Positions 29,039-60,515 of a stretch of 64,000 bases of DNA are shown here, one piece after another. The position numbers and the translations under genes are program-made. Source of the stretch: Azolla caroliniana (taxonomy: Eukaryota > Plantae > Polypodiophyta); assembly GCA_043228905.1 (NCBI GenBank), contig JBHGNT010000005.1, forward strand, positions 14,694,001-14,758,000. Direction: 5' to 3'. The notes beneath the pieces are model-generated. The model was not told the DNA's origin, searched no databases, and worked only from the letters and a program-made list of their open reading frames with translations. Each line of letters opens with the position of its first letter. Position 1 is the first letter of the stretch.

Positions 29039-29411
29039 AATATGAATTTAGATTGAAACAGAAGAATATAGAAACCTTGGTATTTTAGAAACATATCCAA
29101 TTTCCAAAGATTTCCCCCCCTATTACATTGGGCTCCCCATCCTTATATAGTGATGAGAGAGTCTTACAATCCATGCTTTTTCTCTAACTATGAACTTCAT
29201 GCTTTTTCTACCAGTAGACTATATGCTTTCTCTAACGTGCTTTTCCTGAAAGTGATCATGCGTTTTTTATGAACTATAGTGTTCATGCACGCTAGACGTG
29301 CATGTGTAGCTTTTTCTTTTATCATGTGTTTTCTTCTAACTAAAGCTTTTTTATCTAGAAAATATACGTGAAATAACGTTTCTATGTGGGATATCTATTT
29401 TTTAACATTTA

Positions 29412-29486
29412 TGATGTGTTAGTATAATGGTAAGGCTTTACATTATAAACATGGAGGTATAAGGTTCAAATCTTGCCCTATGCAGG
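29412..29486 (+). other. Degenerate tRNA-derived (SINE-head-like) sequence with Pol III A and B boxes
   Basis: A-box TAGTATAATGG at 29420 and B-box GGTTCAAATC at 29463, with tRNA-like spacing; no intact cloverleaf. Confidence 0.4.
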
Positions 29487-37528: not shown

Positions 37529-39622
37529 CACAAAGTATTTGGTCATATGTAGATCTTTATATCTTTATATTAAGGACTTCCACAATGTATTTTCCTATTG
37601 TGATGCATTTACACGAGAAATCGATGAGATTTACAAATATCAATAATTAGTGGAGCCCTTTATACTATAGATAGAAGGTAGCAAGGCCCAACAAAAAGTA
37701 CATAATTGCCGATTCTATTACAGTTTTCTCTATATTTGTTATTTTCATTCTTAAAGTGATAATAAATTTAGTTCATCCTTAACCAACAGTCACATTTCTT
37801 GATGCTTAAAATAATGCTTTCCATGCACACCATACACCATCACGTGAGATGAAAAGGGTGGATATTCATACATGCCAATCAATATGGTGGAAAATAAACT
37901 ATAATGCTTCATAAAATTCTCTCTTGTGGCAATCCCCTTTGTGAGACACGTAAATTGTTTGCACATGTTTAAACTCTTTATCAAAGTAGATTTTCATATT
38001 AACGGAGACATGGGAATTTGCAATGCATTCATCATCAAAGTTTATATTCACCTAGTCCTCAAGTACTCTTTATTTGGGTTGATTCGAGTGAAAACCATGT
38101 TAGCAACCTAGACTAATGAACTTCAAAGCAAGGGCTCTCAAGGTCTAATCTTTATCACACCTTCTGGAAAGCTAAAGAAAAACAAGATAGGAGGATACAA
38201 TTATTTAAGAGGAGGACAATGAGACCAACACCACCTAATTTGGACTTTCCTTCAATAGATAACCATCTACTTCATCACCATATCATCATTGGCATTCAAT
38301 TTGTCAATTGGATGTTGTCCAATGTTAAACTAAAATCACAAACACACATATCATGATCTTCCATTATGTCGAATACAATCCCTTAGCTTATTTAACCCCC
38401 ATTCAACCCTTCCAAGTGGTGGGGTTGAAGCACTTGTGCCCCTTCTCTCAGGTGAAAATCCCACAAGAATGTAGTTTTTTACTTGGGTTTCAGCTTTTGC
38501 TACTTCTCATTAGGAATGTTCACGTATGCAATAATGCCAAACACCTTCACATGTAATACGACCCTAGATTCTACCCAATTGTTCTCATGAAGAGTTATGT
38601 TATGAGCTTCGTCGATGGTGCATCAACTTGTTGGCCTAGGAGTATGTTCCGGAGTAGTATGAACGGGGACGAGTCAGAGCATAATTATTAGTTAAGTAAT
38701 ATTAGAGGAACGGACAAATCTGGATAGTTGTACCGATCCGGATCCGCACCGATTGATAGCCGGTAGCCGGTAAGGCACCGTTTTGTAAACTCTACCGGAC
38801 GCTTATAAAAGGGTTCGGATTGATGTATAAAGTTAATGGAAGTAATACAAGATTAGTGTGTTGATCTTAATGTTATTGTGTACCTGCCTGCTGTTCTGTG
38901 CTTTAATTATTAATCTTACTCGTGTTATAATTAATCAGAGACGTATTGAGTAATTCAGATTAGAATCGGATAAACACCGGATAACATCCATATCCTAACC
39001 ACCCCTTTGGAGACGTGTTCTGGAATGGACAGCCTGTGTTTGTGGCTAAGTCTAGCACACAACACGGAACCTACCGACAATGGTTGGAGTAGTTAGGCAA
39101 GCAGGTTGCCAATGTGGCTGACCGAATGGACGAACAACAGAGACGGGATCCAGAGCAGGCGGAATGGTTGTTGGCAGCAATCGCAGAGTTAGAAAAGGCC
39201 CAAAATCAGATTCGAAGGGTTAGAGGAGGAGTTGGCCAGTGTCAGAACCAAGGATAAAAGATAGAGTGATGGAAGAAGGATAGAGAAGAATGGATGTATA
39301 AGATAGAGAAAGAAAGAGAATGGATACAAGATATGAAATGAGAGCTAAAGACTGGTGTTGATTCGAATTGATTTGAGAATACATGTATGCGCTTATTTAT
39401 AGGTTCCTATAGAATAGCTTAGAGATTTCTAGAATGTTCTAGAATGTTCTAGACCTAGAATGCTCTAGGACATTCTAGAATAATCTAGAGTTTTTACAAT
39501 AATCAATGTAATACAAGAAGTAGCTTTTATTGTTTCATATAACAATAAGCTATCTTAATGGTTGAGGTTTTCAAGTATGAATTACAAGGTTCGAGGTTCA
39601 AGTCCGGGTGACGCCATAATGG

Positions 39623-42600
39623 TCACGTGTTCATGACACTATCCCTCCTTCGAGAACGCCGAGTGGAAGTCGGCGTTAACATTGTTGGGCCAGGCTTGTT
39701 TGGATAGTGACGATGGAAGTCGTTGACTAGAGCTTTAGCATTACAAACGTTATCGATGGGTTCCCAAGTGCGATCACTCGGAGGATAACCAAGCCAATCA
39801 ACTAGATAATAAAGCTTATTGCGCACAATCTTAGAATCGAGAATAGCAGCTACCTCGTATTCGGGGCCGTCCACAAGTTGTACAGAAGGCGGTGGTGGCA
39901 CGACACGATCAGGAATTAAAGAGGTGTGGCAAGGTTCCAAAAGAGAGCTATGAAAGACAGGGTGAAGCCGCATAGGTGCAGGAAGGTTAAGACGAAATGT
40001 TGCATCATTAATCTGCGCCGTGATGACAAAAGGACCTAAGCGTTGATAGTCAAGCTTAGCACACGGTCGGGTAGTCTTGATGTGACGACGAAGCAACCAT
40101 ACACGGTCACCAACCTTAAACAGAGACTTAAGACGATGTCGATCGGCATTGGTCTTATGGTGTGCTTGCGCTTTCTGAAGATGTGACGATAACTCGAACT
40201 GGATTTGTTGTAGTCGGTGGAGGTGATGCGCCGCACTAGGGTTTCGTGACACCTCGGGAAGATCCAGTATACACCATCGAGGGTGGTTGCCGGTGTAGGC
40301 AAACAAAGGTGTAACTTTGGTAGAAGAGTGGACTGTGTTGTTGTATGCAAACTCAGCAAGATGTAAAATTTTACTCCAATCATCTTGTTGATAACTAATG
40401 AAACATCGAAGATATTGCTCGAGCGTTTGATTTGTGCGCTCTGTTTGTCCGTCAGTTTGTGGATGATAAGCCGAAGAGAGTTTGCAAGAGATGTTGAGGC
40501 CTGCCCATAGGTGCTTCCAAAAGTGTGAGATAAATTGAGGACCTCGATCGCTAATAATATCATTCGGGAGACCATGATGGCGAAACACTTCACGCATAAT
40601 GAGATCTGCAGTTTCTTCACTATTGATGGTCTTTACACATGGTACAAAATGTGCCATCTTGGTGAACCGATCCACTACTATTAAAATAGTATCAAAGCCT
40701 TTGGAAGGTGGCAGATCCGTAATGAAATCCATAGAAATAGACTGCCATGGCTTGTTGGGAGGGGGTAATGGTTGTAGTAAGCCATAAGGGTGATGCCGGG
40801 GTATTTTGGCGCGACAGCAGGTGTCACAAGTGCGAACATAATCTTCGACAAATTTTTGCAAGTGAGGCCACCAAAACGAACGTTTCACCAACTCAATGGT
40901 CTTGGAAATACCAAAATGTCCAGCCATGGGGGCATCATGACAATGTTCCAACACTTGAAGTCGGGGTGATCCGTCGGGGACGTAAAGGAGATTCTTGTAG
41001 AAGAGTAAACCATCTTGCCACTTGAAGTCCTGATAATGTTGAGATGACCCTGGCAATGTGGAGCAAGATGGACGACTTGAACCACAGTGGGCTAAGACAT
41101 CCTTAGCAAAATCATCCGAATGAAGTTGTTGCCGAATAGTGTCAAGAAGGGTAGAATCAAGTGATGTGGCATAAATTGTTGTTACCTGTAGCTTTGATGG
41201 CCCGAGGAGAGTTTGCTTTTGATTGTCAAAGGCCGGATCTCCAGGTCGAAGTGCTAGATACGAACGCCGAGACAGAGCATCTGCTTTCCCTTGTTTTCCG
41301 GGGCGAAAAATGATCTTGAAATCGAAACGCGTTAGAAATTGGGCCCACCGAGCTTGTCGTCTATTTAATACTTGAGCTGTTTGAAAATATGTGAGATTTT
41401 TGTGATCACTATAAATGATAATCTGATGAGGTGATCCTTCTAGAAAATGACGCCATTGCTCGAATGAGTCGACCACAGCTAGTAACTCCTTGTCATGCAC
41501 CTCATAGTTTATCTCCGAAACAGTAAACTTTCTCGAGTGAAACGCGACTGGATGTATCTGCCCGTCCTCGCCTGGTTGCGATAGGATACTCCCCAATGCA
41601 AAGTCTGATGCATCCGCCTCAATAGTAAATGGCTTTTCAGGATCAATATGTGCTAGGATGGGTGCTGATGTGAATGCCTCTTTAAGTTGCGTAAAAGCCT
41701 TGTCCACTTCGATACTCCAAAAAAATGCTTGATTTTTCTTGGTGAGTTGAGTAAGGGGCAACACAATGCTTGAATAATTATGTATGAATTTGCGATAGAA
41801 GTTCGCAAATCCGAGGAAACACTGGACATCCCGAATTGAGCATGGGGGTTTCCATTCCAATATTGTTTGGACTTTTGCCGGGTCCATGAAAACACCCTGG
41901 GATGAAATGGTGTATCCCAAAAATTTGACTTGTTTGCAATCAAAACTACATTTCTCAAGTTTGGCGTAAAGACCATACTTCCTTAGGCGTTCAAGTACTT
42001 GCCGCACATGTATATCATGCTCCCCCTGTGTTTTAGAGTAAATCAATAGATCATCTAGGTAGATGATTAGAAAAATATACAAGAAATCCCGGAAGATGTC
42101 ATTTGCCATATGTTGGAATACAGCAGGTGCATTTGTGAGCCCGAAAGGCATGACTGTATACTCGAAATGACCATACCGAGTACGAAATTCTGTTTTCCAC
42201 TCATCTCCCGGCCGAATTCGAACAAGATTATATGCACCCCTTAGATCAATTTTGGTAAAATGCTTTGCCCCACCAATGCGTTCTAAGAGATTGGAGATTA
42301 AAGGTAAAGCATACCTATTCCTTATGGTGACTTTATTTAAGCCTCGATAGTCCACGACCAAACGAAGGGAGCCGTCCTTTTTCTTCACAAAAAAGATAGG
42401 AGCACCAGCTGGAGACTTTGAATGTCGAATAAACCCATGTGCAAGATTTTCCTCGATGTATTCTCGAAGAACCTCAAGCTCAGTGGGTGATAAATTGTAA
42501 ATCGGACCCCACGGAGGCTCTTTTCCTGGTTGGAGATCAATAGGACAGTCGTACGACCGATGCTTTGGAAGAACACTAGCTTTGACTTTGTCGAAAACAT

Positions 42601-43249
42601 CATCATAGTCTTGATATTTTTTGGGAATTTGGATGTCTGAATTCCCTTGAGTGACACTAGAAGGTGTCACTGATACTGCAAATAAGAAAAGGTCCTCCTT
42701 GCCTCCCACTTGGTGCAATTGTTGCAATGTGATGGCTGAAATTTGATGAGAAGGATATGGTGCATCGGTAGAACTATATACTTTGGGAGGATAATCCCGA
42801 GTTCGATCCTTGACAATGATATTTTCTGCTAAAGGGCACCTAATTTCTCGCTTCCTCCAATCGATTCTAGGGTTATGTAGCTCGAACCATGGCAAACCGA
42901 GGACAATTGGATGCTCAGGACTACGGATTATGTTAAAGGAAACTACACATCCTAAATCACCCAAGAGTATGTGTATTGGCTCAGACTCTTCAAATATCTT
43001 CCCGGAAGCTATGGGGCGTCCATCAATCACTACTACGGAAACTGGACAAGGAAGTGTATGCAAGGATATTTGGTGTTTTTGGGCAAAATCTCTATCCATG
43101 AAACAAGAATTGGCTCCAGTATCTAAGAGGGCTTGGACTTGAAGTTGACAACTGGGTGTCCTAACTTGTACTAGGGCTGAGAAGACTCTACTAACATGCT
43201 TGGAAGAAATGGAACCCACACTAGGTTGTACATATCTAGGGTTGTCCAA
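39623..43249 (-). CDS. pol: Pol polyprotein of H (protease, RT, RNase H, integrase, chromodomain)
   Basis: Uninterrupted 1208-aa ORF: ALLDTGA, YLDDLLIYS, EADASDFALG, HDAPMAGH...CDTC, SMDFITDLP, ISDRGPQF, YHPQTDGQTER, chromodomain EYEVAAILDS...YLVDWLGY...TWEP. The frame is open upstream to about 43311. Confidence 0.95.
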   Translation of the reverse strand: MDNPRYVQPSVGSISSKHVSRVFSALVQVRTPSCQLQVQALLDTGANSCFMDRDFAQKHQISLHTLPCPVSVVVIDGRPIASGKIFEESEPIHILLGDLGCVVSFNIIRSPEHPIVLGLPWFELHNPRIDWRKREIRCPLAENIIVKDRTRDYPPKVYSSTDAPYPSHQISAITLQQLHQVGGKEDLFLFAVSVTPSSVTQGNSDIQIPKKYQDYDDVFDKVKASVLPKHRSYDCPIDLQPGKEPPWGPIYNLSPTELEVLREYIEENLAHGFIRHSKSPAGAPIFFVKKKDGSLRLVVDYRGLNKVTIRNRYALPLISNLLERIGGAKHFTKIDLRGAYNLVRIRPGDEWKTEFRTRYGHFEYTVMPFGLTNAPAVFQHMANDIFRDFLYIFLIIYLDDLLIYSKTQGEHDIHVRQVLERLRKYGLYAKLEKCSFDCKQVKFLGYTISSQGVFMDPAKVQTILEWKPPCSIRDVQCFLGFANFYRKFIHNYSSIVLPLTQLTKKNQAFFWSIEVDKAFTQLKEAFTSAPILAHIDPEKPFTIEADASDFALGSILSQPGEDGQIHPVAFHSRKFTVSEINYEVHDKELLAVVDSFEQWRHFLEGSPHQIIIYSDHKNLTYFQTAQVLNRRQARWAQFLTRFDFKIIFRPGKQGKADALSRRSYLALRPGDPAFDNQKQTLLGPSKLQVTTIYATSLDSTLLDTIRQQLHSDDFAKDVLAHCGSSRPSCSTLPGSSQHYQDFKWQDGLLFYKNLLYVPDGSPRLQVLEHCHDAPMAGHFGISKTIELVKRSFWWPHLQKFVEDYVRTCDTCCRAKIPRHHPYGLLQPLPPPNKPWQSISMDFITDLPPSKGFDTILIVVDRFTKMAHFVPCVKTINSEETADLIMREVFRHHGLPNDIISDRGPQFISHFWKHLWAGLNISCKLSSAYHPQTDGQTERTNQTLEQYLRCFISYQQDDWSKILHLAEFAYNNTVHSSTKVTPLFAYTGNHPRWCILDLPEVSRNPSAAHHLHRLQQIQFELSSHLQKAQAHHKTNADRHRLKSLFKVGDRVWLLRRHIKTTRPCAKLDYQRLGPFVITAQINDATFRLNLPAPMRLHPVFHSSLLEPCHTSLIPDRVVPPPPSVQLVDGPEYEVAAILDSKIVRNKLYYLVDWLGYPPSDRTWEPIDNVCNAKALVNDFHRHYPNKPGPTMLTPTSTRRSRRRDSVMNT

Positions 43250-43275
43250 CCAAATGGCTCCTATTTTGGCCGGAC

Positions 43276-44439
43276 TTATTCGTTTGACTCCTCTTCTAAT
43301 TGGCTTAGGACTTCAAATTTATTGGACAAGGGTGGATTATTCATAATATTAGATTCACTAACTACTTCTAAAATGTTGGACTCATTTTTATTGTCATAGT
43401 GAATTTGATTTACCTGACGTCTCGGCCTACGGGAGCAATGAATGACTATATGTCCTGGACCTCCACAATATAAGGACAGATGGTTTGCTCGACGACGTTG
43501 CTTCTCTTCGTCTGACAACGGTCCTCGTCATTGAGTCATATCGATCTCCATGGGTGTAGGACTATCCATTGGAATTGGACTACGTGTTTGCCTTGGAGTT
43601 GGAGCAGGGCTATACATTTGCCTTGGGGATGATTGCGATGTTACTAATGCATAAGTTGGTGTGAATCTTGATCTTGTTATTTGTTGTTGTCGCTCACATC
43701 GACACTCAAAAAGGCGATTATCACACCGTATTGCTCGACTAATAGCTTCTATAAGTGACCTTGGATCCTCGGGGAAGGTAAGAAGTAAGTCTTTGACATC
43801 ACTACGAAGGCCTGAACGGAATTGCTCCATTAGGGCTTGTTCATCCCAAGGAATATCGCTTGTGATGAGACGGAAATTGGCAGCATATGTTGAAGCTGGT
43901 TGATCACCTTGACGAAGTGTACGAATCTTATTGATAGCTGTTCTCGCCCCATCAGTATCTCCGAAACAAGCCTTAAATTCCTTGATAAATTCCTCGAAAT
44001 TATTCAGTAGAGGAGAATTGGTCTCTAGCAATGGAGCAAACCACGACAACGCTATGCCAGTCAATAAAGTGCCCACTAGCCCGACTTGTGATGCATCTGT
44101 TGGATAACGTGCGGGATGCATTTGAATCACCAACCGTACTTGATTAAAAAAACCTCGGAAATGCGCCCTCGACCCATCAAATTTAGCTGGGAGGCTAATT
44201 TTGGGCTCCTTGATAAGTCCCTGACCTTCAACCCTTTGTTGTTGTAACACGATGATTGTCGACTCTAACTGTTGCACTCGTCGCGTGAACTCCTCTTGTT
44301 GTTGTTGCTTCTCTATAGTAACCTTTTGTAGATCCCCAAGTAGACGTTGATTCTCTACTTCAAGAGATGCGAACTTGGATTTAAGGTTCTCCATTTCTGC
44401 AACAAGGGTGAGATATTCTTCCGAGTTAATGGCAGCCAT
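43276..44439 (-). CDS. gag: Gag of H with one in-frame premature stop (43528-43530)
   Basis: Coiled-coil N-terminus, EPKISLPAKFDGSR, LRQGDQPASTYAANF, PMEID, degenerate zinc knuckle SLYCGGPGHIVIHC. ORFs 43528..44646 and 43276..43518 are in the same frame. Confidence 0.88.
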
Positions 44440-44487
44440 GGTTTCAAGATGGTTACAAAGGAGGATAAGAGAGAGAGAGAGAGAGAG

Positions 44488-44499
44488 AATTCGAATCAA
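44488..44499 (-). promoter_or_regulatory. Self-priming primer-binding site of H (TTGATTCGAATT)
   Basis: Lies 2 nt inside the 5' LTR and does not start with TGG. It is the exact reverse complement of LTR positions 44620-44631, about 32 nt downstream of the TATA box. Confidence 0.8.
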
Positions 44500-44688
44500 A
44501 CTGTCAGAACCAAGGATAAAAGATAGAGTGATGGAAGAAGGATAGAGAAGAATGGATGTATAAGATAGAGAAAGAAAGAGAATGGATACAAGATATGAAA
44601 TGAGAGCTAAAGACTGGTGTTGATTCGAATTGATTTGAGAATACATGTATGCGCTTATTTATAGGTTCCTATAGAATAGCTTAGAGAT

Positions 44689-44711
44689 TTCTAGAATGTT
44701 CTAGAATGTTC
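44689..44711. promoter_or_regulatory. Perfect heat-shock element in the U3 of H (copy at 39427-39449)
   Basis: TTCtaGAAtgTTCtaGAAtgTTC: five alternating nGAAn units about 25 bp upstream of TATAAATAA (44655-44663, minus strand). Confidence 0.8.
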
Positions 44712-47278
44712 TAGACCTAGAATGCTCTAGGACATTCTAGAATAATCTAGAGTTTTTACAATAATCAATGTAATACAAGAAGTAGCTTTTATTGTTTCAT
44801 ATAACAATAAGCTATCTTAATGGTTGAGGTTTTCAAGTATGAATTACAAGGTTCGAGGTTCAAGTCCGGGTGACGCCATAATGGTCATGTGTTCATGACA
44901 GCCAGGGCCAAGGAATTAGCGGCCATTATGGCAAACATGGGCCACAACACCAGCTCAGAAAGAAATCTGGCAGAACTAGAAGGAACAAAAGAAAAGGATC
45001 TGACAAAGGAGACAGAACAAGTGCCTAGAGCAACACTAATAAATGAGCGTGAGTGGGAGAAGGAAATACAAGCGCTCAAGGAAGAATTGGTCTCACAAGC
45101 GGCTTTACGAGAAAGAGAAAGAGACTTGAGAAAGACAACCGAGGAGGAACAACAGGGAATCGAGGAAAGTCTCTAGAAGACACAGAGCAACACGGACCGA
45201 CTGAAGGAGAAAAAAGAAAGTTTGCTGCAAGAAAAAGACAAGCTCTGGCGAATGATAGAGACAGAGATAGAGTGATTAAAGGAAGAAATCTAGCAACAAA
45301 AGAACTGGGATGATTGGTTGCGATCACAAACCAACTGGTGCCTAAAGCAGAAAATAGAGGACTTCGAAAAGTTGTACCGGGATCATAAGCAGTTGGAGAC
45401 GGACCACAAGAAGTTGGGGTCGGACTATGACTGGCTGTTGAGACAACGACAAAGGTGTTGGAGGAAGCGGCAAAGGAGCGCATGGAGCTCGTGTCGCAAC
45501 ACTATCAAGAGTTAGAATGGGCAAAGATGGTGTTGGATAGGGTGCAAACAACCTACCAAGCCAAGTTGATGGAATATGAAATACACGCAACAACAACGAT
45601 GAATCTCATCAAACAACTAAAGAACGAAAAGAAGGCCACGGAAAACAAAGTAAAAATGGGCATTCAGAGAATCCGAATGATTGTCGGACCATGGAGGGAC
45701 TAGACGAAAACAAGGATAGATGATTGTTTGACGACGGTATGGAATAAATGGTCGAAACAAGCGGCGGAACTCCAACTGCGCCAAGTGGATGCGAGAAACC
45801 AGAAGAAGGCCAATGAGAATTTTTATAAGATGGATGAGGAAAGCATTGTCACCATCCAAGAGGGATTGTCAGTCAAATTTTTTGCCCTGGCCGAAACTCA
45901 AATAGAGGCTATCCGGAAGCTCATCGACAAGAAGATGATCAACTCGACGTGCAACTACAATTTGAGGGCTATGAGTGGTAACAACGGAGGAAGGAAGCTG
46001 AACAACGAGTAGAACAAATCAATATCATTGATGAGGAGCAATCGACGGAGCCAAAGACCTCTACACCACAACAGTCGGGAATGGAGACAGATATACTGAT
46101 GGAAACAGAGCTGGACCCATAATGAGAGGAGGAGACAGAGAGGGCTGAACCGAAGCAACAACAATGCCCTCAGCAGCCAGAACAACAACAACCACCGAAG
46201 CAACAACAACAGATGATGGAAGAAGAACCACTCGAACCCTTGGACCAGAGTATTTTGGACATACTCGATGAACATTAAAGCAACTAACCCGTGGGTTCGA
46301 CGTGCAAGGCACTATCCCACGGGTGTGCCATGTGTTCGGCTAGGAGTATGTTCCGGAGTAGTATGAACGGGGACGAGTCGGAGCATAATTATTAGTATAA
46401 TTAATAGTCAAGTAATATTAGAAGAAGGACGGATCCACACTGATTGATAGCCGGTAGCCGGTAGCCGGTAAGGCACTGTTTTTGTAAACTCTACCGAACA
46501 CCTATAAAAGGGTCCGTATTGATGTTTAAAGTTAACGGAAGTAATACAAGATTAGTGACATGTTGATCTTAATGCTATTGTTTACCTGTCGTTCTGTGCT
46601 TTAATTATTAATCTTACGTGTGTTATAATTAATCGGAGATGTATTGAGTAATTCGGATCGGAATCGGATAAACACCGGATAACATCCATATCCTAACCAC
46701 CCCTTTGGAGAAGTGTTCCGGAATAGACACCTTGTGTTTGTGGCTAAGTCTTGCCCAAGATAAACACGACTCATTAGGTAGACAGTTGTGTATATTACTT
46801 CTGCCCAATATGACTTTGACATGTTCTTTTACTATAACATAGTTTGTGTGACCACGAATAATGAGATTCTTTCATTCACCAACTCTATTTTGTTGGGATG
46901 TGTGGTGACAAGTGAATTCCCGAAGGCATTGGCTAAAAACACCTTTGAGAAGTATCTTTTGCCATCATTTAAATGTAATCATTGAACCTTTTGACTTGTC
47001 TCTTTCTCCATTTGGAATATTCAATCTTTAGAAGTGAGTGAACACTTCACTCTTCTTTTGCATTAGGCATATCCATGCATGTTGGGCAAAATAGTCAATG
47101 AAGGTAACAAACTACCTACATCCATTGTATATTTCATTTTAAGTTGATCCCCATACATCTAATGGATGTCACCTAACAACCCTTTGATCACATTCTTTTT
47201 GTTAGGGAATGGATGCTTATATTGTTTGTTGACAAGCATTGCATAGTCAGTCGATTTCAAACTTACCAACAATCTAGT

Positions 47279-47945: not shown

Positions 47946-49164
47946 TGTCACAGATGAACAATTGGAAGATAAAGAGATGGGGAAGTTGATGACAATGAGT
48001 AAGAATATCTATTCCATGACTGGCGTTGATTTCCTTGATGTTAACAAGGGAGATCAACCCTTTTTATAATATCAAGCCAAGTCTTCATACTATAATATCA
48101 AGCATACTAATTCTTGCATGCAAAGTCTTACATACTGAGTCTTATATACCACTCTTTATACAAAGGTTTAAAAACTAAAGTTTGTCTGGGAGAAATATAT
48201 ATATATACAAGAACCTAAGGCTAAAATTCGAGTCGATGTTCATGACATTATCCTCCCCTTAAACGCCAACTTCAAGAAGGTGCAGGTTTGTGAGGATATC
48301 GGAGATGAAAATCATGAACCACTTCCGAGGCATTGAGTAAATTTCTAGCGGGCTCCCATGTGGCCTTAGAGATGGGATATCCTTTCCACAAGACCAAATA
48401 CTAGAGCTTCCGTCGGCTCTTGTGCAAGTCTAGAATGGTCTCAACTTCATACTCATCCCCAGGGGGGGTGGCTCGATGCTTCTTCCTGGAATTGAGGATG
48501 GATGATAGAGCTCAAGAAGTGATGCATGGAAGACATTGTGAATTCGGTGGTGTAATGGAAGAGCAAGACGGAAAGCCACAAGGTTGACTTTGTCAATGAT
48601 GTGGAACAGACCCAACTTTTTGTAATCGAGTTTGTTGCATGGGTGAGTTGTCGGAATATGCCGACGTAATAGCCCGAACATGTCACCAACTTTAAAACTA
48701 GGTGCAGCCCGCCAATGTCGATCAACCTTCTCTTTGTGTCATTCTTGAGCAATGGAGAGTTCTAGGGATAGATCATGATGCACTTCTTTCATCAGACGAG
48801 CTCGGTCTTCAGTAGATGGATTCACAGAACCAACAGGGATAGCTATGCTAAAGCGTGGGTGGAGCCCATAATTTACGAAGAAGGGTGTTACGGTAGTTGA
48901 TGTGTTGAGAGTATTGTTGTAGGCGAACTCGGCCATTGGAAGAAATTTGATCCAATCGTCTTGTTGATAACTTATCATACATCAGAGATATTGCTCTAGG
49001 ATCTGATTCACTTGTTCCGTTTGGACATTTGTCTCAAGATGGAAGGCTGTTGAAAATTTTGTGGAAGTTCCAAGAGTCTAGAAGAGGCGTTTCCAGAAAT
49101 GAGACATAAATTGGGGACCGGAATAAAAAATAATGTCATCCAGTAAACCGTGAAGGCACACGAT
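47946..49164 (-). mobile_element. 3' end of a second, degenerate chromovirus (J): LTR, PPT, chromodomain and integrase
   Basis: LTR 47946-48247 ends gttcatgaca, as in H; PPT aaggggaggataa; peptides QQDDWIKFLPMAEFAYNN, KLDYKKLG, IHNVFHASLLE and LHGL.DDII..GPQF. Confidence 0.85.
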
Positions 49165-49343
49165 TGTTGTCTGTCGGAATAGTAACCGACGGACAGAAGT
49201 GAAGAAGTATTATAATATAGTAAAAGCGTAAGAAACGTATGTAACGGTTCACGTGGGAGGTGTGAACGGCTAAAAGACCTTGTCCTGTGTATATAAAGGG
49301 AAGTGTAAACGTAAGTGTTTGCGGAAGCGTAAAACAGAGAACA

Positions 49344-49382
<39 letters not shown>

Positions 49383-51713
49383 AGAACACAATTTCAAAAT
49401 TATCTCAAGACTGTGTATACACACTATGCTAAGTAGCACTATTTATACAAGTCCTCTTGGGACTGACAGAAGTACCATGTACTTCAATGCTCACACGAGC
49501 ATCTGACACTTACTACGAGACTATAGCTACCTAGTAGTCTATCCTATATTAGGCTTCCGATTGGACTTCCGGTTACGGATTGCACCCGACCTCCACTGCT
49601 TGCCGGTTCGGTTGCTCACCGGTATACCGATCCGTTTCGCCCGATCCGTCTCGCTTACCGGCTCTGGCTTATTCAACCGATCCAGCTCCGGTTGAGATTG
49701 CCGCTCAACACTCCCCCTCAAGCTCAACCTGAGGTGGGGTCGTAGTGTCGACCTCTGTGGCAGTCGACTCTTCCAACCGACTTCTCCTGGCGTCACTCCG
49801 CCTTGCTCACGCTCCTCGTCCGGTCCGGTCCCATTTGCCGTGACCCCTTTAGTTTTGCGCGCCTCGACCCTCTCGGTCGACATGTCTGCTCAATAGGCCC
49901 ATCTCAACACTCACGTTGTTGTGACTCCGGCGCTTGCCGATCCGTCGGTTCTCCCACGATGGAATCAACTTCTGCTGTGTCCGTGTCCCCTTGGCCTTCA
50001 GTCGATCCGACTCATCCGGATCCATATGTTGATCCGAGTCAGCTGTCTCCGACTCGTTCCAGCTCTTGTCCGAATTGGTACACTCCGATTCGACTTCCGA
50101 CTTCAGGCCTCTCACCACATCGGACCACTTCCGAGTCTTGGCCTTCTCCCTGCTTCCCTCGGCTTCTTCAGCCGGTGAACCGAAATCGAATTCTTAATTC
50201 GACTCCGCATCATTGTCAGTATCGTCGTGATGAACTCCGCACAACATGCACTTCTCTTCCTGAGTGCACAACTCTTCTTCACAGCCGCTTGCTCCGACCT
50301 GTTCGGATGTATCGACTTCCTTCGTCGACTCGGCTTCCTTCATCTTCTTGTCTCCTCTTCTTCTGGCTCTCCTCTTACCGACGGGTTCAACAGTTTTTTG
50401 GCCTTTGCCCGTTTCGGTAGAGACTTTGCCCTTGCTTCTCCCCCTCAAGTGCGGCACGTCGAGATGTTGAATACCAAGCATGTCGGTAAAGTGTTGCAAC
50501 TTGTCCGATCCGAGCGGCTTGGTGAAGATGTCGGCAACTTGCCGATCCGTATGAACATACCGTAGGTCAACTTCACTGCTCAGGACCCGCTCACGCACGA
50601 AGTGGTAGTGCACCTCGATGTGCTTTGTGCGAGCATGGAACACAGGGTTCCTAGCGAGCTGCAGGCTGCTCATGTTATCGCAGTAAATCGGGATCGGGGT
50701 CGGTGCCTCGATCTGCAAGTCTCGCAGAAGTCGCCGAAGCTAGATGGCTTCACAAGTGGCAACGGTAGCGGCCCGGTACTCAGCCTCAGTGCTTGACAAA
50801 GCCACTGTGGGCTGCTTCTTGCTGCTCCACGCAACGGCCGCGCTACCTATGGAGAACATGTATTCGGAAGTGGAGCGGCGATCAGACGCATCGCCGGCCC
50901 AGTCCGCATCTGTGTAACCGACAAGCTCTTCGGGTATACCTCGCCAGTATAGCAGTCCCCGGTCCTTAGTGCCGCTGAAATACCATTGACGGGAACCTAA
51001 CGTTCCTTATGTCCAACGCTCGGCCACAACCGAGATTCTTTACTTACACAGAAAACAGGAAACGGAAAAACACGCGACACAAAAGGAGAGAAGAGGTACA
51101 CAGGAGGTTTACGTGGAAAACCCCAAGCTAGGGGAAAAAACCACGGCAACCCACAGGCTGCAAACTGTCACTATGTATGAATGTACAAAACAGTGAGTTC
51201 ACTGAGGCACCGACCTCGTGCTCACAAATCTTCGCCATAGGCGGCGGTTACAACAGAGGCAACGACCTCGTCTCTCTCTCTCCCTCTCTGTACAGTTACG
51301 CACTCTCTCCTTTTTCTTGCACCAACAAGAAAAATGACAACAACTACAACAGTTACTAAAAGTTTGCCCTAAGTCATATTTATACTAATATGACTTTTCG
51401 GCTATTTACAAATGTAGCCTCGATGGGCTCTCAGAAACATATTTACGAATATGTCTCTTCCTCTGGTTCGTACCGGGGCCTGCACCATCGGGTTCTCCGT
51501 AGCCGGGTACTCCTCATCCGGTTCATACCGGGCCTGCACCATCCGGCTCTCCGTAGCCGGGTACTCCTCATTCGGTCTTCACCGGGTCTGTATCATCCGG
51601 CTCTCCGTAGCCGGGTTCTCCTCATACCGTTTTGGCCTCGGCCGAGTTTGTTCGCCGGCACTGTTCTTCTTCCTTCCCATCCGGAGGGACCTGTCTCCCA
51701 ACAAACTCCCCCT

Positions 51714-54700
51714 TCACTCCGGCATGGGGTGTCTTACCAGTCCGATCCTCTTCCGGCATGCATCCAGCTTGTCGGGTGTCAGCACTTTGGTCAACATATT
51801 TGACCCGCTCTCGGCCGTGTGGATCTTCGTTAGTGCGAACTCCTGGTCATCTACTCTTTCTCGGATCCAGTGATACCTTCGCTGGATATGCTTCGTCGGG
51901 GAATGGTAGGCCGCATTCTTAGCAAGGTGGATGGCACTTTGACTGTCACAGTAGAGTCGGTATTCCTCTTGCCGGATGCCGAGCTCTCCGATGAAGTCCT
52001 TCATCCATAATATTTCCTTGCCGGCTTCCACAGCCGCCATGTACTCCGCCTCCGTGGTTAACAATGCAACCGTCTTCTGCAGCCTCGACTGCCATGAAAC
52101 AGCTCCCCCTGCATATGTCATTACATACCCGGATGTAGACCGGCTGGTATCCACATCAGCCGACATGTCCGAATCGGTGAAACCGTCCAGTTGAGGTTTT
52201 CCGGAGCCGAATCGGAGACACATATTTGAAGTGCCCTTCAAATACCGGAGTATCCATTTGACTGCGTTCCAGTGCTCCTTGCCGGGATTACTCATGAACC
52301 GGCTCACCACTCCGACTGCGTATCCTATATCCGGTCGGGTACACACCATAGCGTACATCAAGCTCCCGACGGCAGAGGCATATGGAATCTTCATCATATC
52401 CGCCTTCTCTGCTTTCGTCTTCGGGCTTTGCTTGCCGGATAGTCTGCAGTTTGCCGGAAGTGTCGATCCGGCCGGTTTCGCTTCTGACATATTGAACCGG
52501 TGAAGCACCTTTGTCACATACTTCTCCTGTGACAGCCATAGTTGCTTCTTTAACCGGTCCTGAATGATGTACATCCCCAACATCTGTCTTGCCGGACCCA
52601 AGTCTTTCATTGAGAAGGTCCGGTTGAGAGCCTTCTTCAGCATCCGTATTTTGACTTAGTCTCGTCCGATGATCAACATGTCATCCACGTACAGGAGGAG
52701 TATCAGGAAGTCCCCTCCTTCAAACTTCTTCACAAACACGCAGTGATCGGCCTGCGTCTTGTGGTACCCTTGATCGGTCATGAAGGAGTCGAACTTCCGG
52801 TACCATTGCTGTGGAGCTTGATTCAGTCCGTACAGACTCTTCTTCAACCGGCATACTAGGTGCTCCTTCCCTTTCTCCACAAATCCTTTCGGTTGCTGCA
52901 TGTAGATCTCCTCTTCGAGGTCGCCGTGAAGGAATGCCGTCTTCACGTCCAGCTGCTCTACCTCGAGGTCCATGCTTGCTGCTATACTCAGCACCGTCCG
53001 GATGGAGGTCATCTTTACTACCGGGGCAAATATCTCATCGAAGTCCACGCCCTTCTTCTGCTGGAACCCCTTGACCACGATCCTGGCTTTGTATCTCGGG
53101 GGGTTGCCGGCATCTCCCGGTTTCAACTTGTACACCCACTTGTTTCGGAGTGCCCGCTTTCCTTTCGGCAACTCCACCAATTCATACGTATGGTTCTCAT
53201 GCAGGGAATCCATCTCATCCTGCATGTCACTTAACCATTTTCTGCTGTGGGTGTCTTCCTTTGCTTCTTCGAAGCTTTCCGGCTCCCCCTCATCGGTTAA
53301 CAAAACATGCTCTGCATCCGGAAATCTCCGGGGCGCCCTTCTCTCTCTGAGAGGATATCTCCGTCTTCGGGCTTCGGTAACCGACTCCTCCATTTGCTCT
53401 TCATCCGAATCCGATTCGGGGTCTGGGCCGGTTCCGGTCTCAGCTTCCTCTACTTCTTCTTCTACCGGTTCGGTATCCTCACCGTAACCGGCTGGTTCCT
53501 CGAGTGCTAACCGGTCTCTTGCCGGTTGGGTCTGCTCATCGTAGAGTCTATCCTTACCGGTCGACTCGGAGTTCATTATCTTCTTCTCCGACTCCCAGTC
53601 GGCGAGCGTCTTGTCCTCCATGAAGATAATATCTCGACTCCGGAATACCTTCTTGTCAACCGGGTCCCACACTCGGTAGCTGAACTCATCGTCACCGTAA
53701 CCGAGGAATATGCATGGCCGGGTCTTTGGATCTAATTTTCCTCTCCAGTCCTTTGCAACATGCACGTACGCGAGACACCCGAACACCCTCAGATGCTGGT
53801 AGGACACTTCCTTACCGGTCCATACTCTCTGTGGCGTGTCTCCGTCCAACGGTACTGAGGGTGATCTGTTTATCACATATGTCGCCGTCGACAGTGCCTC
53901 AGCCCAAAACTTCTTGAGTAGTTTTACATGCGCTAGCGTACTCCGGACCCTCTCCATTATGGTCCGGTTCATCCTCTCGGCCAGTCCGTTTAGTTTCGGC
54001 GTCTTCGGCACGGTAAATTCGAGCCAGATTCCCTTCGAGCGGCAGTACTCCTCGAACTGCCCCCGGTATTCTCCTCCGTTGTCTGCTCGAACCGCCTTCA
54101 GCTTCCGGCCGGTTTCTCTTTCCACTCTCACGTGGAGCTCTTTGAAGACGGATAGCACCTGATCCTTCGTCTTCAGTGGTGTGGCCCACAGCTTCCCGCT
54201 GTGGTCATCTATGAACGTCACGAAGTACTGCGCTCCGGCATGTGACTTCGTGTCTACTTGACACACATCCGTATGCACCAACTCTAGTGGTGCATTACGT
54301 CTCATCGGTGGCCTTGGTCGGAAGGAGGTCCGGTTCTGCTTACCGGCCAGACAATTAGTGCACTTCTCTAAGTGCACGTTCTTCATTGGAATGAGGTTGT
54401 CGTCTGCAAGCCTCTTCATCCCCTTCTCGCTCATATGACACAGCCTCTTGTGCCACAGCTCACCGGCAGTGTCGGATGCCACGTTCACTTCTTCCGGACA
54501 TAACCGGGCATTCATCAAGTACAGTGTGTTTACCTTCTGAGCCCGAGCCACAGTCAGGCTCCCTTTGCTGAACTTCATGACACCGTTCCGGATGCTACCT
54601 GTGTAGCCTTCATCATCTAGCCGATCGGCTGATATCAAGTTCAGATGAACTTCCGGAACGTGTTGGACATCCTTCAGCTGCAACTTGCATCCGGTTGGTG

Positions 54701-55745
54701 TTGACAGCCACACGTCTCCTATGCCGATAATCCGGCATGTACCTTCATTCCCCATCCGGACACAGCCGTGGTCACCAGCTGAGTAGCATGAGAAGCATTT
54801 CCGGTCCGGGGTAAGGTGGAACGATGCTCCGGAGTCTACCACCCAGGTCATCTCGTCGCCGGCAAGGTTTATCTCATACTCCTCGGTGATGAGCATCAAC
54901 TCTTCTTCACTTGCCGCGATTGCCGTCGTTCCCTTCCGGTCTTTACCGTTCCGGTCCGGGGTTTGCTTCGAATCGGTACCGTCGGTTTCCTTGTCTTTAC
55001 GGAAATGCCGACAGTTCTTTTGGAAGTGTCCCGGCTTGCCGCAATAGAAGCAAGTAGGCCTCCCCCTTGACTTTGACCGTGTCCCCGACTTCTCCTGGTT
55101 TTGGGGACTATGGTTTCTATGTCTTCCGCGTTCTGATTCGGTAAGGAGCGCTTTGGAGTCGGAGCTCGTATCTTTATCCTTCCGACGCGCCTCCTCATCT
55201 AGCAAGCTCGACTTTACTCTTCCTAGGGATAACCGTTTTCCTTCCGGCCCGGCGTTGCCCAAAGTGACAACCAACGTCTCCCAGCTATCCGGGAGGGAAC
55301 CGAGTAGGAGTAACGCTAATACCTCATCGGCAAGGGGTACTTCCAATGACGTTGCCTGGTGTATCAGCCCCTGGAAGGCATTCATATGCTCCGCCATGCT
55401 GGAGCCATCTTGGTACCGGAGTCTTACTAGCTTCCGGAATACCGAAACCTGATTAACAACATTTTTGTTTTGAAACATTATGCTGATCTTCTCCCAGAGC
55501 TCATGAGCCTTGCTCTCTTCATTGAAGTTGTTGTACAGGCTCATGTCGATGAAGCACCGTATGTATGCCGTTGTCTTCATGTGCATCACCTCCCATATCG
55601 CGGCATCGATTTTGTTCGGTCTCTTGTCCCCGAACTGAACCGGTAGCCAGAGGTCTTTAACAACGAGCATGTCCCTCATCTTCGACTTCCACACTGAATA
55701 GTTGGAGCCGGTGAGCTTGAACATGCCGCCAAACGATTCGTCCAT
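51714..55745 (-). CDS. Gag-Pol polyprotein of C with a single in-frame TAA at 52656-52658
   Basis: CFYCGKPGHFQKNC, WVVDSGASFH, WHKRLCH, DNGGEY, LDVKTAFLHG, LLYVDDML, YCDSQSAIHLA. ORFs 52656..55805 and 51714..52643 are in the same frame. Confidence 0.92.
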
Positions 55746-56252
55746 TTTTTGTGTCGATTTCGCTCTGATACCACTTGACGGGAACCTAACGTTCCTTATG
55801 TCCAATGCTCGGCCGCAACCGAGATTCTTTACTTACACAGAAAACAGGAAACGGAAAAACACGCGACACAAAAGGAGAGAAGAGGTACACAGGAGGTTTA
55901 CGTGGAAAACCCCAAGCTAGGGGGAAAAACCACGGTAGCCCACAGGTTGCAAACTGTCACTATGTATGAATGTACAAAACAGTGAGTTCACTGAGGCACC
56001 GACCTCGTGCTCACAAATCTTCGCCATAGGCGACGGTTACAACAGAGGCAACGACCTCGTCTCTCTCTCTCCCTCTCTGTACAGTTACGCACTCTCTCCT
56101 TTTTCTTGCACCAACAAGAAAAATGACAACAACTACAACAGTTACTAAAAGTTTGCCCTAAGTCATATTTATACTAATATGACTTTTCGGCTATTTACAA
56201 ATGTAGCCTCGATGGGCTCTCAGAAACATATTTACGAATATGTCTCTTCCTC

Positions 56253-56470
56253 CGGTTCGTACCGGGGCCTGCACCATCGGGTTCTCCGTAGCCGGGTACT
56301 CCTCATCCGGTTCATACTGGGCCTGCACCATCCGGCTCTCCGTAGCCGGGTACTCCTCATCCGGTTCATACCGGGCCTGCACCATCCGGCTCTCCGTAGC
56401 CGGGTACTCCTCATCCGGTCTTCACCGGGTCTGTATCATCCGGCTCTCTGTAGCCGGGTTGTCCTCATAC
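56253..56470. repeat. 54-bp tandem repeat in the LTRs of C (4 units here, 3 units at about 51463-51630)
   Basis: Unit cggttcataccgggcctgcaccatccggctctccgtagccgggtactcctcatc. Confidence 0.85.
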
Positions 56471-59400
56471 CGTTTCGGCCTCGGCCGAGTTTGTTCGCCG
56501 GCACTGTTCTTCTTCCTTCCCATCCGGAGTCCCCGGTCCTTAGTGCCGCTGACATACCGTAATATTCGTTGGGCGCACTGAAGGTGCTCCATGGTCGGCT
56601 TCTGCATGAACTGACTTACCATGCCGACCGGATAGCTGATGTCGGGTCGGGTGATGGTTAAGTAGATCAGGCTTCCGACAACCTGTCGGAACTGTTTCTC
56701 ATTGCAGGCCGGTCCGGAGTTGGGACGGAGCTTCTGGTTCCGGTCCAGGGGTGTGGAGACAGGTCGACAATCCGTCATGCCGAACTTATACAACATATTA
56801 AACACGTAATGTCGTTGTGAGAGCAATATGCCGTCGGGGGTCCGGAGCACTTCGATCCCAAGAAAATAATGGAGGTCCCCCAGGTCCTTCATTTCGAATG
56901 CGTCCGACAACTGGGACTTGATGCGGTTGATTTCGGGAAGACCCGGTCCGGTGATGACTAAATCATCCACATACAAGAGTATACATACCGGACCGTCAGA
57001 GCCTTGCCGGATGAACAACGAAGAGTCCGACTTAGAGACAGCAAACCCCAGCTTACGCAACCGGTGCATGATCTTCGCGTTCCAAGCTCGGGGGGCTTGC
57101 TTCAAGCCGTAAAGCGACTTCTTCAGTCGGCATACCGCCGACTTGTTCATCTCCGATTGAAATCCGGGGGGCTGAGTCATAAAGACTTCTTCTTCAAGCT
57201 CTCCTTGAAGGAAGGCGTTCTTCACATCCATCTGGTGAAGATGCCACCCCCTTGCCGCAACAACCGCCAGTACCACACGAACCGTCGTAATCTTCACCAC
57301 AGGAGCGAAGGTCTCGTCGTAGTCGATTCCGTGGGTTTGCGCGTATGCCTTCGCCACTAACCGGGCTTTGTACCGGTTAACAAAACTGTCGGCGTTGTAC
57401 TTGACCTTGTACACCCACTTGCATCCGATCGATTTACAGTCACGGGGAGGATCAACTAGGTCCCAAGTTTCGTTGGCATCGAGTGCCCGCATTTCTTCGT
57501 CCATAGCGGCACGCCAATTTGCGTCCTTTGCCACTTCTACGTAGCTCTCCGGCTCACGCACTTCTGTCACCTTAGTCATGTACGCATAATGATGCGCCAT
57601 GTATTCATTGTACCCGTACCGCATGACGGGATCCTTCTGGCGGGTTGATCGGCGCAACGCACCGTCACCTGATTTGAGGCCCTTCTTGGCCAGTTCGGTC
57701 TTCGTTGCCGAAGATCCGCCTTTCTCCTTTCCGGAGTCGGATACGCACCGATCCGACTCATCGTTGCCGGTTTCGAATTCCGGCATCTTCCTCTTCCCCT
57801 TCTCTTTGCGCGTGAACCGTTTCCTTGGTTGCTTGCGTGGGGAGAGCACGACAGAGTCTCCACCACTTGTCGTCTCTTCATCCAACTGGTCCAACCGACT
57901 CAGTCGCTCGTTCGGTCCACTCAACCGTAACGATTCTGGACTCTCATCTTGAGTCCCGGCTTCATCATCCTCTGCTAGGGTTGATTCCGGCTCACTGGCC
58001 TGATCTTCCGGCATTGGGTCGGGATCGGAAGTCGGAGTCGGTACGGAGTACCAGGATGCCGATTCATCGAACTCGACATCCCGGCTTACTAGGACTTCCT
58101 TCGTCCGGGGGTTAAAGCACTTATACCCCTTTTGCTCTTGAGTATACCCAACTAAGATGCATTTTTCCGATTTTGCATCCAGCTTTCTCCGCTTCTGATC
58201 CGGCACATGCACATACGCTATGCTGTCGAATATCCGAAGGTGTCTTAAGTTCGGTTTGCGCCCGAAATACAGCTCATGAGTTGACATCTTGTCACCAATG
58301 CGGTTTTGTATGTAGACGGCCGTCCGGACCGTCTCCGCCTAGTAGAACCGGGGCATGCTCTTCTCCTCCAGCATTGCCCTTGCCGCTTCGACGAGTGTCC
58401 GGTTCTTCCTTTCGGCCACACCGTTTTGCTCCGGTGTGTATCTGCAGCTGAACTCTCGCCGAATTCCCTTCTGCTGCAGATAACTAGTGAATTGGCCGGA
58501 AAAATATTCCTTTCCGCCATCCGACCGAAGGCATTTGATCTTCTTCTCTGATTCCCGTTCCACCATCTTCTGAAGGCTCCGGAAACAGTCGAAGACTTCG
58601 CTCTTCCGCTGAATGAGGTAGATCCAAGTATGTCGAGTATAGTCGTCGATGAAGGAGACGAAGTATCGGCTCCCACCAAGGCTTACACTTTGTGCCGGTC
58701 CCCACACATCCGAATGGATGAGATCGAGCTTGTTATGGCTCTAGTTCCGTTCGGTGGGGAATGGAAGCCGGTGTTTCTTCCCAAGTTGGCAGGCTTCACA
58801 AATGTCGGCTCTCCGGCCGCTGAACTTTGGCAAACCGAAAACGACTTGTTTCGTTTGCAGGTCTTGAAGCCTCTGGTAGTTGACGTGGCCTATCCGCTTG
58901 TGCCACAGGTCGATGGCCCACTCGACCTTCTGTCGTTTCGCGAACAGAGCGGTGCCAAAGTCATTGGTGTTGAGGATAAACATCCTCCCGTCTGTGCGCC
59001 CTTGCGCAATGACTTCGCCCTCATCCTCAATGAAGCACCCGAGGTGCGTAAACTGCACCTGCATCCCCTGGTCGACAATCTGACCGACGGACACCAGGTT
59101 CTTCGTGATTGTCGGAACGTGTAATACGTTCATCAGCTTCCCTTTCTGTCTGACGTGGCTTAGAGGGACTTCTCCGACGTGCACGATTGGGTGAGGAGTG
59201 TCGTCTCCGGTTTCGACTATTCCTGGTTGATCCGGTTTCTCCAGAAAGGAGAACCACTCTTTGTGGCTCGTCATGTGGTTTGACGCGCCGGAATCAACAT
59301 ACCACACTTCCTCCATTTTGGAAGTGGTCGTCTTCATTGAGTTTGCCTTGTGATTCATCACCAAGGCTGGCCCCTTACCGGCCTTTCCGGTTCCGGATCC

Positions 59401-60456: not shown

Positions 60457-60515
<59 letters not shown>

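What the first reader, a model, noticed from the sequence alone, without database searches (positions are those of the whole stretch)
44488..44663. tRNA-independent, Tf1-style self-priming signature in a young plant chromovirus
Seen in sequence: element H has no TGG-starting tRNA PBS. Two nt inside the 5' LTR it reads TTGATTCGAATT (44499-44488, minus strand). This is the exact complement of AATTCGAATCAA (44631-44620), which begins about 32 nt after the first T of TATAAATAA, where transcription should start. Established knowledge: fission-yeast Tf1 primes cDNA with the first 11 nt of its own RNA after RNase H cleavage, and Tcn1-like chromoviruses of fungal affinity occur in seed-free plants. 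Inference: this is a recently active (1/399 LTR difference, intact pol) self-priming retrotransposon in a land plant.
Basis: partly seen in the sequence, partly recalled or inferred. Interest (0 to 1): 0.85.

Follow-up and report, generated by a model that had tools for sequence, protein, structure and literature searches.

The report
Self-priming retrotransposon lineage in a fern
A young jumping gene in a fern carries a 12-base site that pairs with the predicted start of its own RNA, and related families change both halves together, so it likely primes its own copying without a host tRNA, as already predicted for moss relatives; its end-repeats also keep a backwards tRNA-type promoter motif whose function is untested.

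Summary
A 5,661-bp Ty3/gypsy chromovirus (LTRs 1/399 different, 5-bp TSD) has no tRNA primer site. The 12 nt after its 5' LTR are the exact complement of 12 nt lying 32 nt past the TATA box (chance about 3 in 10,000). Across 12 elements the two halves co-vary: six different primers each have a perfect partner, and 7 of 12 pairs change on both sides. Tf1-type self-priming is likely; the start site and RNase H cut are untested. The idea is in print: Neumann 2019 predicted self-priming for 83% of 1,500 moss and club-moss Tcn1 elements, and this scan noted it before in two peat-moss windows. Three things are added here. The host is a fern, where a 2010 PCR survey found no Tcn1. The covariation was not found in my paper searches. 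And 18 of 23 LTRs keep a tRNA-type A-box/B-box pair, 32-33 nt apart and antisense in U3; the scan has notes of similar motifs in fungal-like genomes. This copy has an in-frame stop in gag, so it is likely non-autonomous. Tcn1 membership is likely, but no named Tcn1 reference was in the tree.

The parts
39240..44900 (-). Whole LTR retrotransposon (5,661 bp), Ty3/gypsy chromovirus of fungal (Tcn1-like, Tf1/sushi) affinity; TSD CTGGC at 44901-44905 and 39235-39239
44502..44900 (-). 5' LTR, 399 bp, TG..CA
39240..39638 (-). 3' LTR, 399 bp, one difference from the 5' LTR
44813..44823 (+). tRNA-type A-box-like motif TATCTTAATGG in U3, antisense to the element (3' LTR copy 39551-39561)
   Evidence: the consensus used for the scan is recalled
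44857..44867 (+). tRNA-type B-box motif GGTTCAAGTCC, 33 nt after the A-box and preceded by a conserved AGGT (3' LTR copy 39595-39605)
44685..44752 (.). Palindromic TCTAGA-rich repeat block in U3; forms a hairpin either way; variable among copies
44655..44663 (-). TATA box TATAAATAA
   Evidence: no listed variant at 44656-44663
44620..44631 (-). Predicted self-primer, the predicted first 12 nt of the RNA (AATTCGAATCAA)
44612..44618 (-). Short extension of the primer helix (2 bp with the GT before the PBS, 3 bp with GAC at the LTR end); conserved but weak
   Evidence: beats shuffles (15 of 500) in only 1 of 12 elements
44488..44499 (-). Primer-binding site TTGATTCGAATT, two nt after the LTR, not of the tRNA 3'-end (TGG) type
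43276..44439 (-). gag frame, interrupted by an in-frame stop at 43530-43528 before the zinc-knuckle region; its end overlaps the pol frame
39623..43312 (-). pol, open: protease, RT (YLDD), RNase H, integrase, chromodomain with aromatic Y/W/Y residues; in the -1 frame relative to gag
39639..39651 (-). Polypurine tract GAAGGAGGGATAG

Best explanation
This is a recently inserted copy of a fern-borne chromovirus lineage of fungal, likely Tcn1, affinity whose members likely prime reverse transcription with the first 12 nt of their own RNA, as yeast Tf1 does with 11 nt. Shown: the element anatomy; the 12-nt complement; its preservation through compensatory changes across families 71-95% identical to this one in RT-RH; the fixed TATA spacing; the fern host; the fungal-side placement. 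Inferred: Pol II starts at or within 1-2 nt of 44631; the 5' 12 nt fold onto the PBS across a 120-nt loop; the element's RNase H cuts after nt 12, leaving the 3'-OH primer. Also inferred, from recalled LTR replication: copying of the primer into the new PBS would keep the two halves matched. This copy likely needs Gag and Gag-Pol from intact relatives because of its gag stop. The antisense A-box/B-box pair in U3 is shown to be conserved. It most likely descends from one captured tRNA or tRNA-SINE head and is likely kept as a TFIIIC site or outward-facing Pol III promoter; that function is untested and the confidence figure does not cover it.
For: Chance about 3e-4. In 12 aligned elements with primer and PBS in one continuous stretch, 98% of 204 cells pair, 7 pairs change on both sides, and the covariation score is 0.398 against 0.161 for shuffles (0 of 500) and at most 0.114 when slid. 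11 of 12 have a perfect 12/12 match, across six distinct primer sequences. Two more distant elements show the same layout with other primers (L046, 11 nt; L080, 12 nt). First TATA-like hexamer to primer is 32-34 nt in 12 of 12 although the pattern allowed 21-38; the -1/+1 step is CA in 12 of 12. The predicted fold from 44631 holds the helix; mean pairing probability is 0.88-0.97 in 11 of 12 and 0.68 in L056. Among contigs of three DNA runs and one guessed RNA run, 36 variant sites in 286 nt include none in primer, TATA, A-box or B-box (42 nt; P = 0.002). The RT-RH tree joins the family with Powellomyces and Ustilago elements (98/99), and holding it with the Lolium and Closterium rows is rejected (p-AU 0.006). 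Neumann 2019 lists self-priming, a 5-bp TSD, overlapping gag/pol frames and a chromodomain for Tcn1.
Against: No start-site, cleavage or strong-stop cDNA data: all runs laid were contigs. The 12 rows are related and come from collapsed metagenome contigs with unrecorded hosts, so they stand for six or seven independent primer states, not 12. L056 has one mismatch and one wobble. The whole-fragment fold is no more stable than shuffles (z -1.29, 16 of 200). Tf1's three-duplex 'pretzel' is not reproduced: the 3'-side duplex beats shuffles in 0 of 12 and the 5'-side duplex clearly in 1 of 12. No named Tcn1, Tf1, Tekay, CRM, Reina or Galadriel sequence was in the trees, and the AU group was named after the first tree was seen. 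Host tRNAs were not scanned.
Confidence: 0.88

Rival explanations
1. The R/PBS helix is a conserved RNA stem with another job (packaging, dimerisation, translation control), and priming uses something else.
For: Covariation shows pairing, not priming. The flanking duplexes that Tf1 needs are weak or absent.
Against: The 3' arm sits exactly where a PBS sits (2 nt after the LTR) in every element, and there is no other PBS. The 5' arm starts at a fixed TATA distance on a C|A step. The same layout is the demonstrated primer in Tf1 (PMC7175516 passage).
Confidence: 0.07
2. A host tRNA fragment (T-loop region) or the LTR's own tRNA-like RNA primes at this site.
For: Several primers contain T-loop-like words (TTCGAATC, GGTTCAA; the motif is recalled). 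The LTR holds a tRNA-like motif. Host tRNAs could not be scanned.
Against: The T-loop-like words fall in different registers in different families, and L033, L046 and L080 lack them. The PBS changes track R, not a fixed host RNA. The tRNA-like motif of this copy does not match its PBS. Rfam and ARAGORN find no tRNA in the LTRs.
Confidence: 0.03
3. The U3 A-box/B-box pair is a passenger: one old tRNA-SINE insertion inherited by descent, with no present function.
For: No Rfam tRNA match at E up to 10. 5 of 23 LTR 5' ends fail the 3-mismatch cut-off. The A+B variant depletion alone is marginal (P = 0.046). Two similar box pairs with at most 2 mismatches lie elsewhere in the window (21339-21392, 29420-29473), so such relics may be common in this genome. 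An earlier scan note (e1-9852194, untested here) read a similar fungal motif as a passenger.
Against: Both boxes, the AGGT word and the 32-33 nt spacing persist in 18 LTRs, most of which blastn cannot align to this LTR in that region. Column conservation is 0.76 (A) and 0.83 (B) against 0.52 and 0.51 in the flanks, and it is concentrated on the consensus positions. Block-shuffled loci give 5 pairs with at most 2 mismatches in 2.1 Mb. The boxes were chosen by match to the consensus, which inflates these figures.
Confidence: 0.35

Closest known systems
Plant Tcn1-clade chromoviruses (REXdb chromovirus|Tcn1; Neumann et al. 2019, PMC6317226: passages and Additional file 5 read; Additional files 1 and 3 too large to read)
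   Same: No tRNA PBS, a self-primer complement of at least 10 nt starting 0-5 nt after the LTR, 5-bp TSD, size within 5.5-9.4 kb, overlapping gag/pol frames, aromatic-cage chromodomain, grouping with fungal elements.
   Different: Reported from moss and club-moss only, while this host is a fern. Self-priming there was predicted by blastn element by element; the passages read show no covariation test. The passages read mention no Pol III boxes.
SM-Tcn1, PpatensLTR and the fern PCR survey (Novikova et al. 2010, PMC2864245: passages and section 7 read)
   Same: Two ORFs, about 5.7 kb, LTRs of about 400-440 bp. That paper gives about 50-52% RT-INT identity to fungal Tcn1-like elements; this pol is 51-54% identical to named fungal proteins.
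   Different: That paper found neither tRNA- nor self-priming in SM-Tcn1, and no Tcn1 clone in its fern and horsetail survey, concluding that the clade is more likely absent from them.
Tf1 of Schizosaccharomyces pombe and the Tf1/sushi group (passages of PMC7175516, PMC4600332 and bioRxiv 10.1101/2022.12.06.519325; the original Levin papers were not held)
   Same: A 5'-end RNA segment complementary to a PBS just inside the LTR; chromodomain integrase; RNase H present.
   Different: 12 nt rather than 11. The three-duplex pretzel is reduced to the central duplex plus a short 5'-side extension, with no 3'-side duplex found. Cleavage is shown for Tf1 and untested here.
Helenus, Cassandra and Ajax TRIMs with Pol III promoters in their LTRs (Kojima 2024, PMC10886601: passages and section 3.5 read)
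   Same: tRNA-derived A and B boxes conserved inside LTRs while the rest of the tRNA shape decays.
   Different: Those are short non-autonomous elements thought to use the Pol III promoter to make their own RNA. Here the boxes sit in a protein-coding lineage with its own TATA promoter, face away from the element's transcript, and lie 10-39 nt from the LTR's outer end in the LTRs measured.

Membership tests
Ty3/gypsy chromovirus | LTRs, TSD, PR-RT-RH-INT order, C-terminal chromodomain | tested here: met
Tcn1 clade | RT-RH-INT groups with Cryptococcus Tcn1, PpatensLTR and SM-Tcn1 | tested here: inconclusive
   Groups with Powellomyces and Ustilago elements, away from Lolium and Closterium, but no named Tcn1 sequence was obtainable
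Tcn1 clade | Group I chromodomain with aromatic cage | tested here: met
   Pfam Chromo E 4e-13; Y, W and Y at the cage positions read by eye (positions recalled). Also found in Chlamyvir and some Galadriel, so not diagnostic alone.
Tcn1 clade | No tRNA PBS; self-primer of at least 10 nt starting 0-5 nt after the LTR | tested here: met
   12 nt at +2
Tcn1 clade | 5-bp TSD; gag and pol in overlapping frames (prevailing form) | tested here: met
Tf1-type self-priming | R/PBS pairing conserved across the family | tested here: met
Tf1-type self-priming | Primer is the 5' end of the transcript | not testable with these tools
   Only contigs were available; indirect support from TATA spacing and the C|A step
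Tf1-type self-priming | RNase H cleavage at the end of the duplex gives the primer | not testable with these tools
   RNase H domain present; no biochemical data
Tf1-type self-priming | Three-duplex pretzel structure | tested here: not met
   3'-side duplex no better than shuffles in 12 of 12; 5'-side duplex short, clearly above shuffles only in L033. Coarse test.
TRIMp3 (Helenus, Cassandra, Ajax) | Short, non-coding, non-autonomous element | tested here: not met
   5.7-kb coding element
Pol III type-2 promoter | A-box and B-box at tRNA-like spacing | tested here: met
   18 of 23 LTR 5' ends within 3 mismatches, gap 32-33 nt; consensus recalled
Pol III type-2 promoter | TFIIIC binding or Pol III transcription | not testable with these tools
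   no data

The most novel reading that the evidence does not exclude
An autonomous, self-priming Tcn1-type lineage has radiated in a fern group where the clade was reported absent, pointing to a further fungus-to-plant or moss-to-fern transfer or to overlooked persistence. Across the lineage it keeps a working, outward-facing tRNA-type Pol III promoter or TFIIIC site at the edge of each LTR. That site would insulate the element's Pol II promoter, or send short RNAs into the flank and antisense into the integrase and chromodomain end, and would spread TFIIIC sites through the host genome.
Probability: 0.3. Interest if true: 0.7.

Novelty: new variant of a known kind. Interest (0 to 1): 0.42.

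Why it matters
Self-priming in plant Tcn1 elements is a blastn-level prediction in the papers read. Six perfectly compensated primer/PBS states in one lineage turn it into a comparative result and give ready-made natural swap controls. A fern host would revise the stated moss and club-moss range of the clade and bears on the question of fungus-to-plant transfer. A conserved antisense tRNA-type promoter in the LTR of a coding element, if functional, would extend the Cassandra/Helenus idea to autonomous elements with a different role. The self-priming claim alone is not new.

Tried and rejected
No whole genome is held, so host tRNAs and genomic copies could not be scanned. No RNA holder was listed. 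One contig of a guessed RNA run (X18) spans 44600-44885, but it may be DNA and cannot show a start site. The PBS lies beside a CT repeat that the read-laying tool skipped, so PBS variants were not seen. Viral contigs gave nothing for gag and one distant element for pol. Named Tcn1 or moss references were sought through without success; the PDB gave only Ty3 as nearest. Rfam (window 44400-45000; 12 loci) and ARAGORN (26 loci) call no tRNA at the U3 motif, so it is not a tRNA gene; the miRNA hits are the palindromic block, far below the gathering scores. The third occurrence of the 12-mer (32065) lies inside an unrelated open frame and looks like chance. No other copy or solo LTR of the family is in the window. 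In distant loci L059, L060, L066 and L069 no self-primer was found upstream of a PBS-like site (their LTRs may be missing); L071 and L078 give 9-10 nt. The full pretzel structure was tested and not supported. Paper searches that found no report of Tcn1 in ferns, of covariation evidence, or of Pol III boxes in coding chromovirus LTRs. Subscription papers and fern-genome supplements are not covered, and Neumann's Additional files 1 and 3 could not be read.

Full report
Observation. The element lies on the minus strand from 44900 to 39240 (5,661 bp). It has two 399-bp LTRs differing at one site, TG..CA ends, a CTGGC target duplication and a purine tract. After the 5' LTR come GT and then TTGATTCGAATT (44499-44488), the exact complement of LTR bases 44631-44620. 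These begin 32 nt after the first T of TATAAATAA. A match this long arose in 6 of 20,000 shuffled LTRs and 5 of 18,180 random 30-mers.

Coding. pol is one open frame with protease, RT, RNase H, integrase and a chromodomain. gag stops in frame after 303 codons, before the zinc-knuckle region and before the gag/pol overlap; ten of ten relatives checked run 374-396 codons. The copy is young, but as written it could not make full Gag or Gag-Pol. It likely depends on intact relatives (inference).

Host. The gene at 891-1823 (minus) is the C-terminal part of methionine S-methyltransferase. Its best named hits are Adiantum (56%) and Ceratopteris (54%); all other named plants among the 120 listed are at 45% or less. 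In a 24-row tree it falls in a 100/100 clade with those ferns but outside the Adiantum/Ceratopteris group. The host is a fern; the genus was not determined. Runs labelled organisms A to D hold many variant contigs of the LTR, so the family is abundant and not confined to one label.

Covariation. A metagenome scan returned 78 loci. They are collapsed contigs with unrecorded hosts. Primer and PBS were located by flanking motifs, not by pairing. Twelve loci held both in one stretch (13 units). Two units identical to L001 were dropped, leaving 11 plus the window. On these 12 rows, 98% of cells pair and 7 pairs change on both sides; the covariation score of 0.398 exceeds all 500 shuffles and all slid controls. 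Eleven rows are perfect 12/12, with six distinct primers (AATTCGAATCAA, AAATCGGTTCAA, AAATTGGTTCAA, ATTCCGGTTCAA, AGTTCGAGTCAA, ACTCTTGATCAA); L056 has one mismatch and one wobble. L017 (perfect) and L007 (one wobble) have the two halves at opposite contig ends and were left out. Loci with only one half were also left out. The more distant L046 and L080 show the same layout with other primers. The rows are related, so the evidence is six or seven states, not twelve. The TATA-like box is 32-34 nt upstream and the -1/+1 step is CA in 12 of 12; that this fits a plant start site is recalled knowledge. Among copies in public contigs, 36 variant sites in 286 nt avoid primer, TATA and both boxes (P = 0.002; no single motif is significant alone).

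Against a full match to Tf1. Tf1 needs three duplexes (bioRxiv 10.1101/2022.12.06.519325, passages). Here the helix extends by only 2 + 3 conserved pairs on the 5' side, clearly above shuffles only in L033, and no 3'-side duplex beats shuffles. No start-site or cleavage data were available.

Placement. RT-RH trees (71 of 166 candidate rows, chosen by me to thin near-duplicates; 16 rows) put the family with Powellomyces and Ustilago elements (98/99), apart from Lolium and Closterium. Forcing it with those two is rejected (p-AU 0.006; group named after the first tree was seen). The Atlas neighbours of a 90% homologue are mostly basidiomycete and chordate clusters (a lead only). No named Tcn1 was available, so membership is likely but not shown.

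Read on the opposite strand, U3 holds an A-box-like word at 44813-44823 and a B-box at 44857-44867, 33 nt apart. The same pair, at 32-33 nt and within 3 mismatches of the recalled consensus, occurs in 18 of 23 distinct LTR 5' ends. L009, L018, L020, L023 and L032 fail the cut-off, three of them with a visible degenerate version. L056 lacks the LTR end and was not counted, and near-identical duplicates were counted once. An AGGT word 5-8 nt before the B-box, as in the tRNA variable loop (recalled), is 89-100% conserved, while flanks sit near 0.5. Rfam and ARAGORN do not call it a tRNA. It points out of the element at the 5' LTR and antisense into the chromodomain end at the 3' LTR. The likeliest reading is a captured tRNA or SINE head kept as a TFIIIC site or Pol III promoter. 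A passenger relic is a real rival, since two similar pairs occur elsewhere in the window.

Mechanism. Pol II likely starts at 44631; the first 12 nt pair with the PBS across a 120-nt loop; RNase H would cut after nt 12; RT would extend the freed 3'-OH into U5-R. By recalled LTR replication, the primer is later copied into the new PBS, which would keep the halves matched. The pairing and its conservation are shown; the start, the cut and the copying are inferred from Tf1 (PMC7175516 and PMC4600332, passages).

What is known. Novikova et al. 2010 found no Tcn1 in its PCR survey of ferns and horsetails (section 7). Novikov et al. 2012 (PMC3350952, passages) likewise names only moss and Selaginella. 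PMC8282616 and PMC13469084 (passages) add nothing on ferns, and PMC3601003 (passages) only mentions hairpin priming. My searches found no fern Tcn1 and no covariation test; some searches found Pol III boxes in LTRs only for non-autonomous TRIMs (PMC10886601; other papers seen as listings only). Fern-genome supplements and subscription papers were not covered. Earlier scan notes report the self-priming layout in two peat-moss windows and tRNA-like LTR boxes in fungal-like genomes; these are unchecked leads.

Verdict. The signature is real and well supported; the mechanism is a published prediction for this kind of element. The fern host, the covariation and the conserved antisense boxes make it a modest new variant. 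Interest 0.42.

Noticed in passing
L006:4858-4880, L025:4294-4316, L042:1327-1349: An inverted repeat overlaps the primer start. Transcripts assumed to start 10 nt upstream lose the primer:PBS helix (pairing falls from 0.91-0.97 to 0.04-0.18) in 3 of 12 elements, but not in the window copy. Start-site choice could act as a switch.
   Followed up: partly
L002:2953-3005, L001:1010-1062, L003:7305-7357, L035, L043, L075: A second antisense A-box/B-box pair (gap 31; 1 mismatch in L002 and L003) lies inside pol, in the protease-RT linker of the closest subfamily; it may be a by-product of the codons.
   Followed up: no
window 29420-29473 (+) and 21339-21392 (+): Two more A-box/B-box pairs outside the element. 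The first lies about 300 nt from a TATA-like word on the opposite strand, a layout like the U3 motif, perhaps in another repeat.
   Followed up: partly
window ~290-1950 (-): 3' exons of a fern methionine S-methyltransferase gene.
   Followed up: yes
window 48275-49224 (-): Integrase fragment of another Ty3/gypsy element, about 50% identical to this pol.
   Followed up: no
window ~11100-17550, 26400-29050, 49300-60850: Several Ty1/copia elements, some nested and some broken; LTR-like pairs at 11133/17073, 49304/60417 and 50980/55768.
   Followed up: no
window 39623-39638: The pol frame runs through the polypurine tract and ends 16 nt inside the 3' LTR.
   Followed up: no
L080, L087, L097 and others: Eukaryotic chromovirus contigs sit inside prokaryote genome records, likely as contamination; L080 has its own 12-nt primer/PBS pair.
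   Followed up: partly
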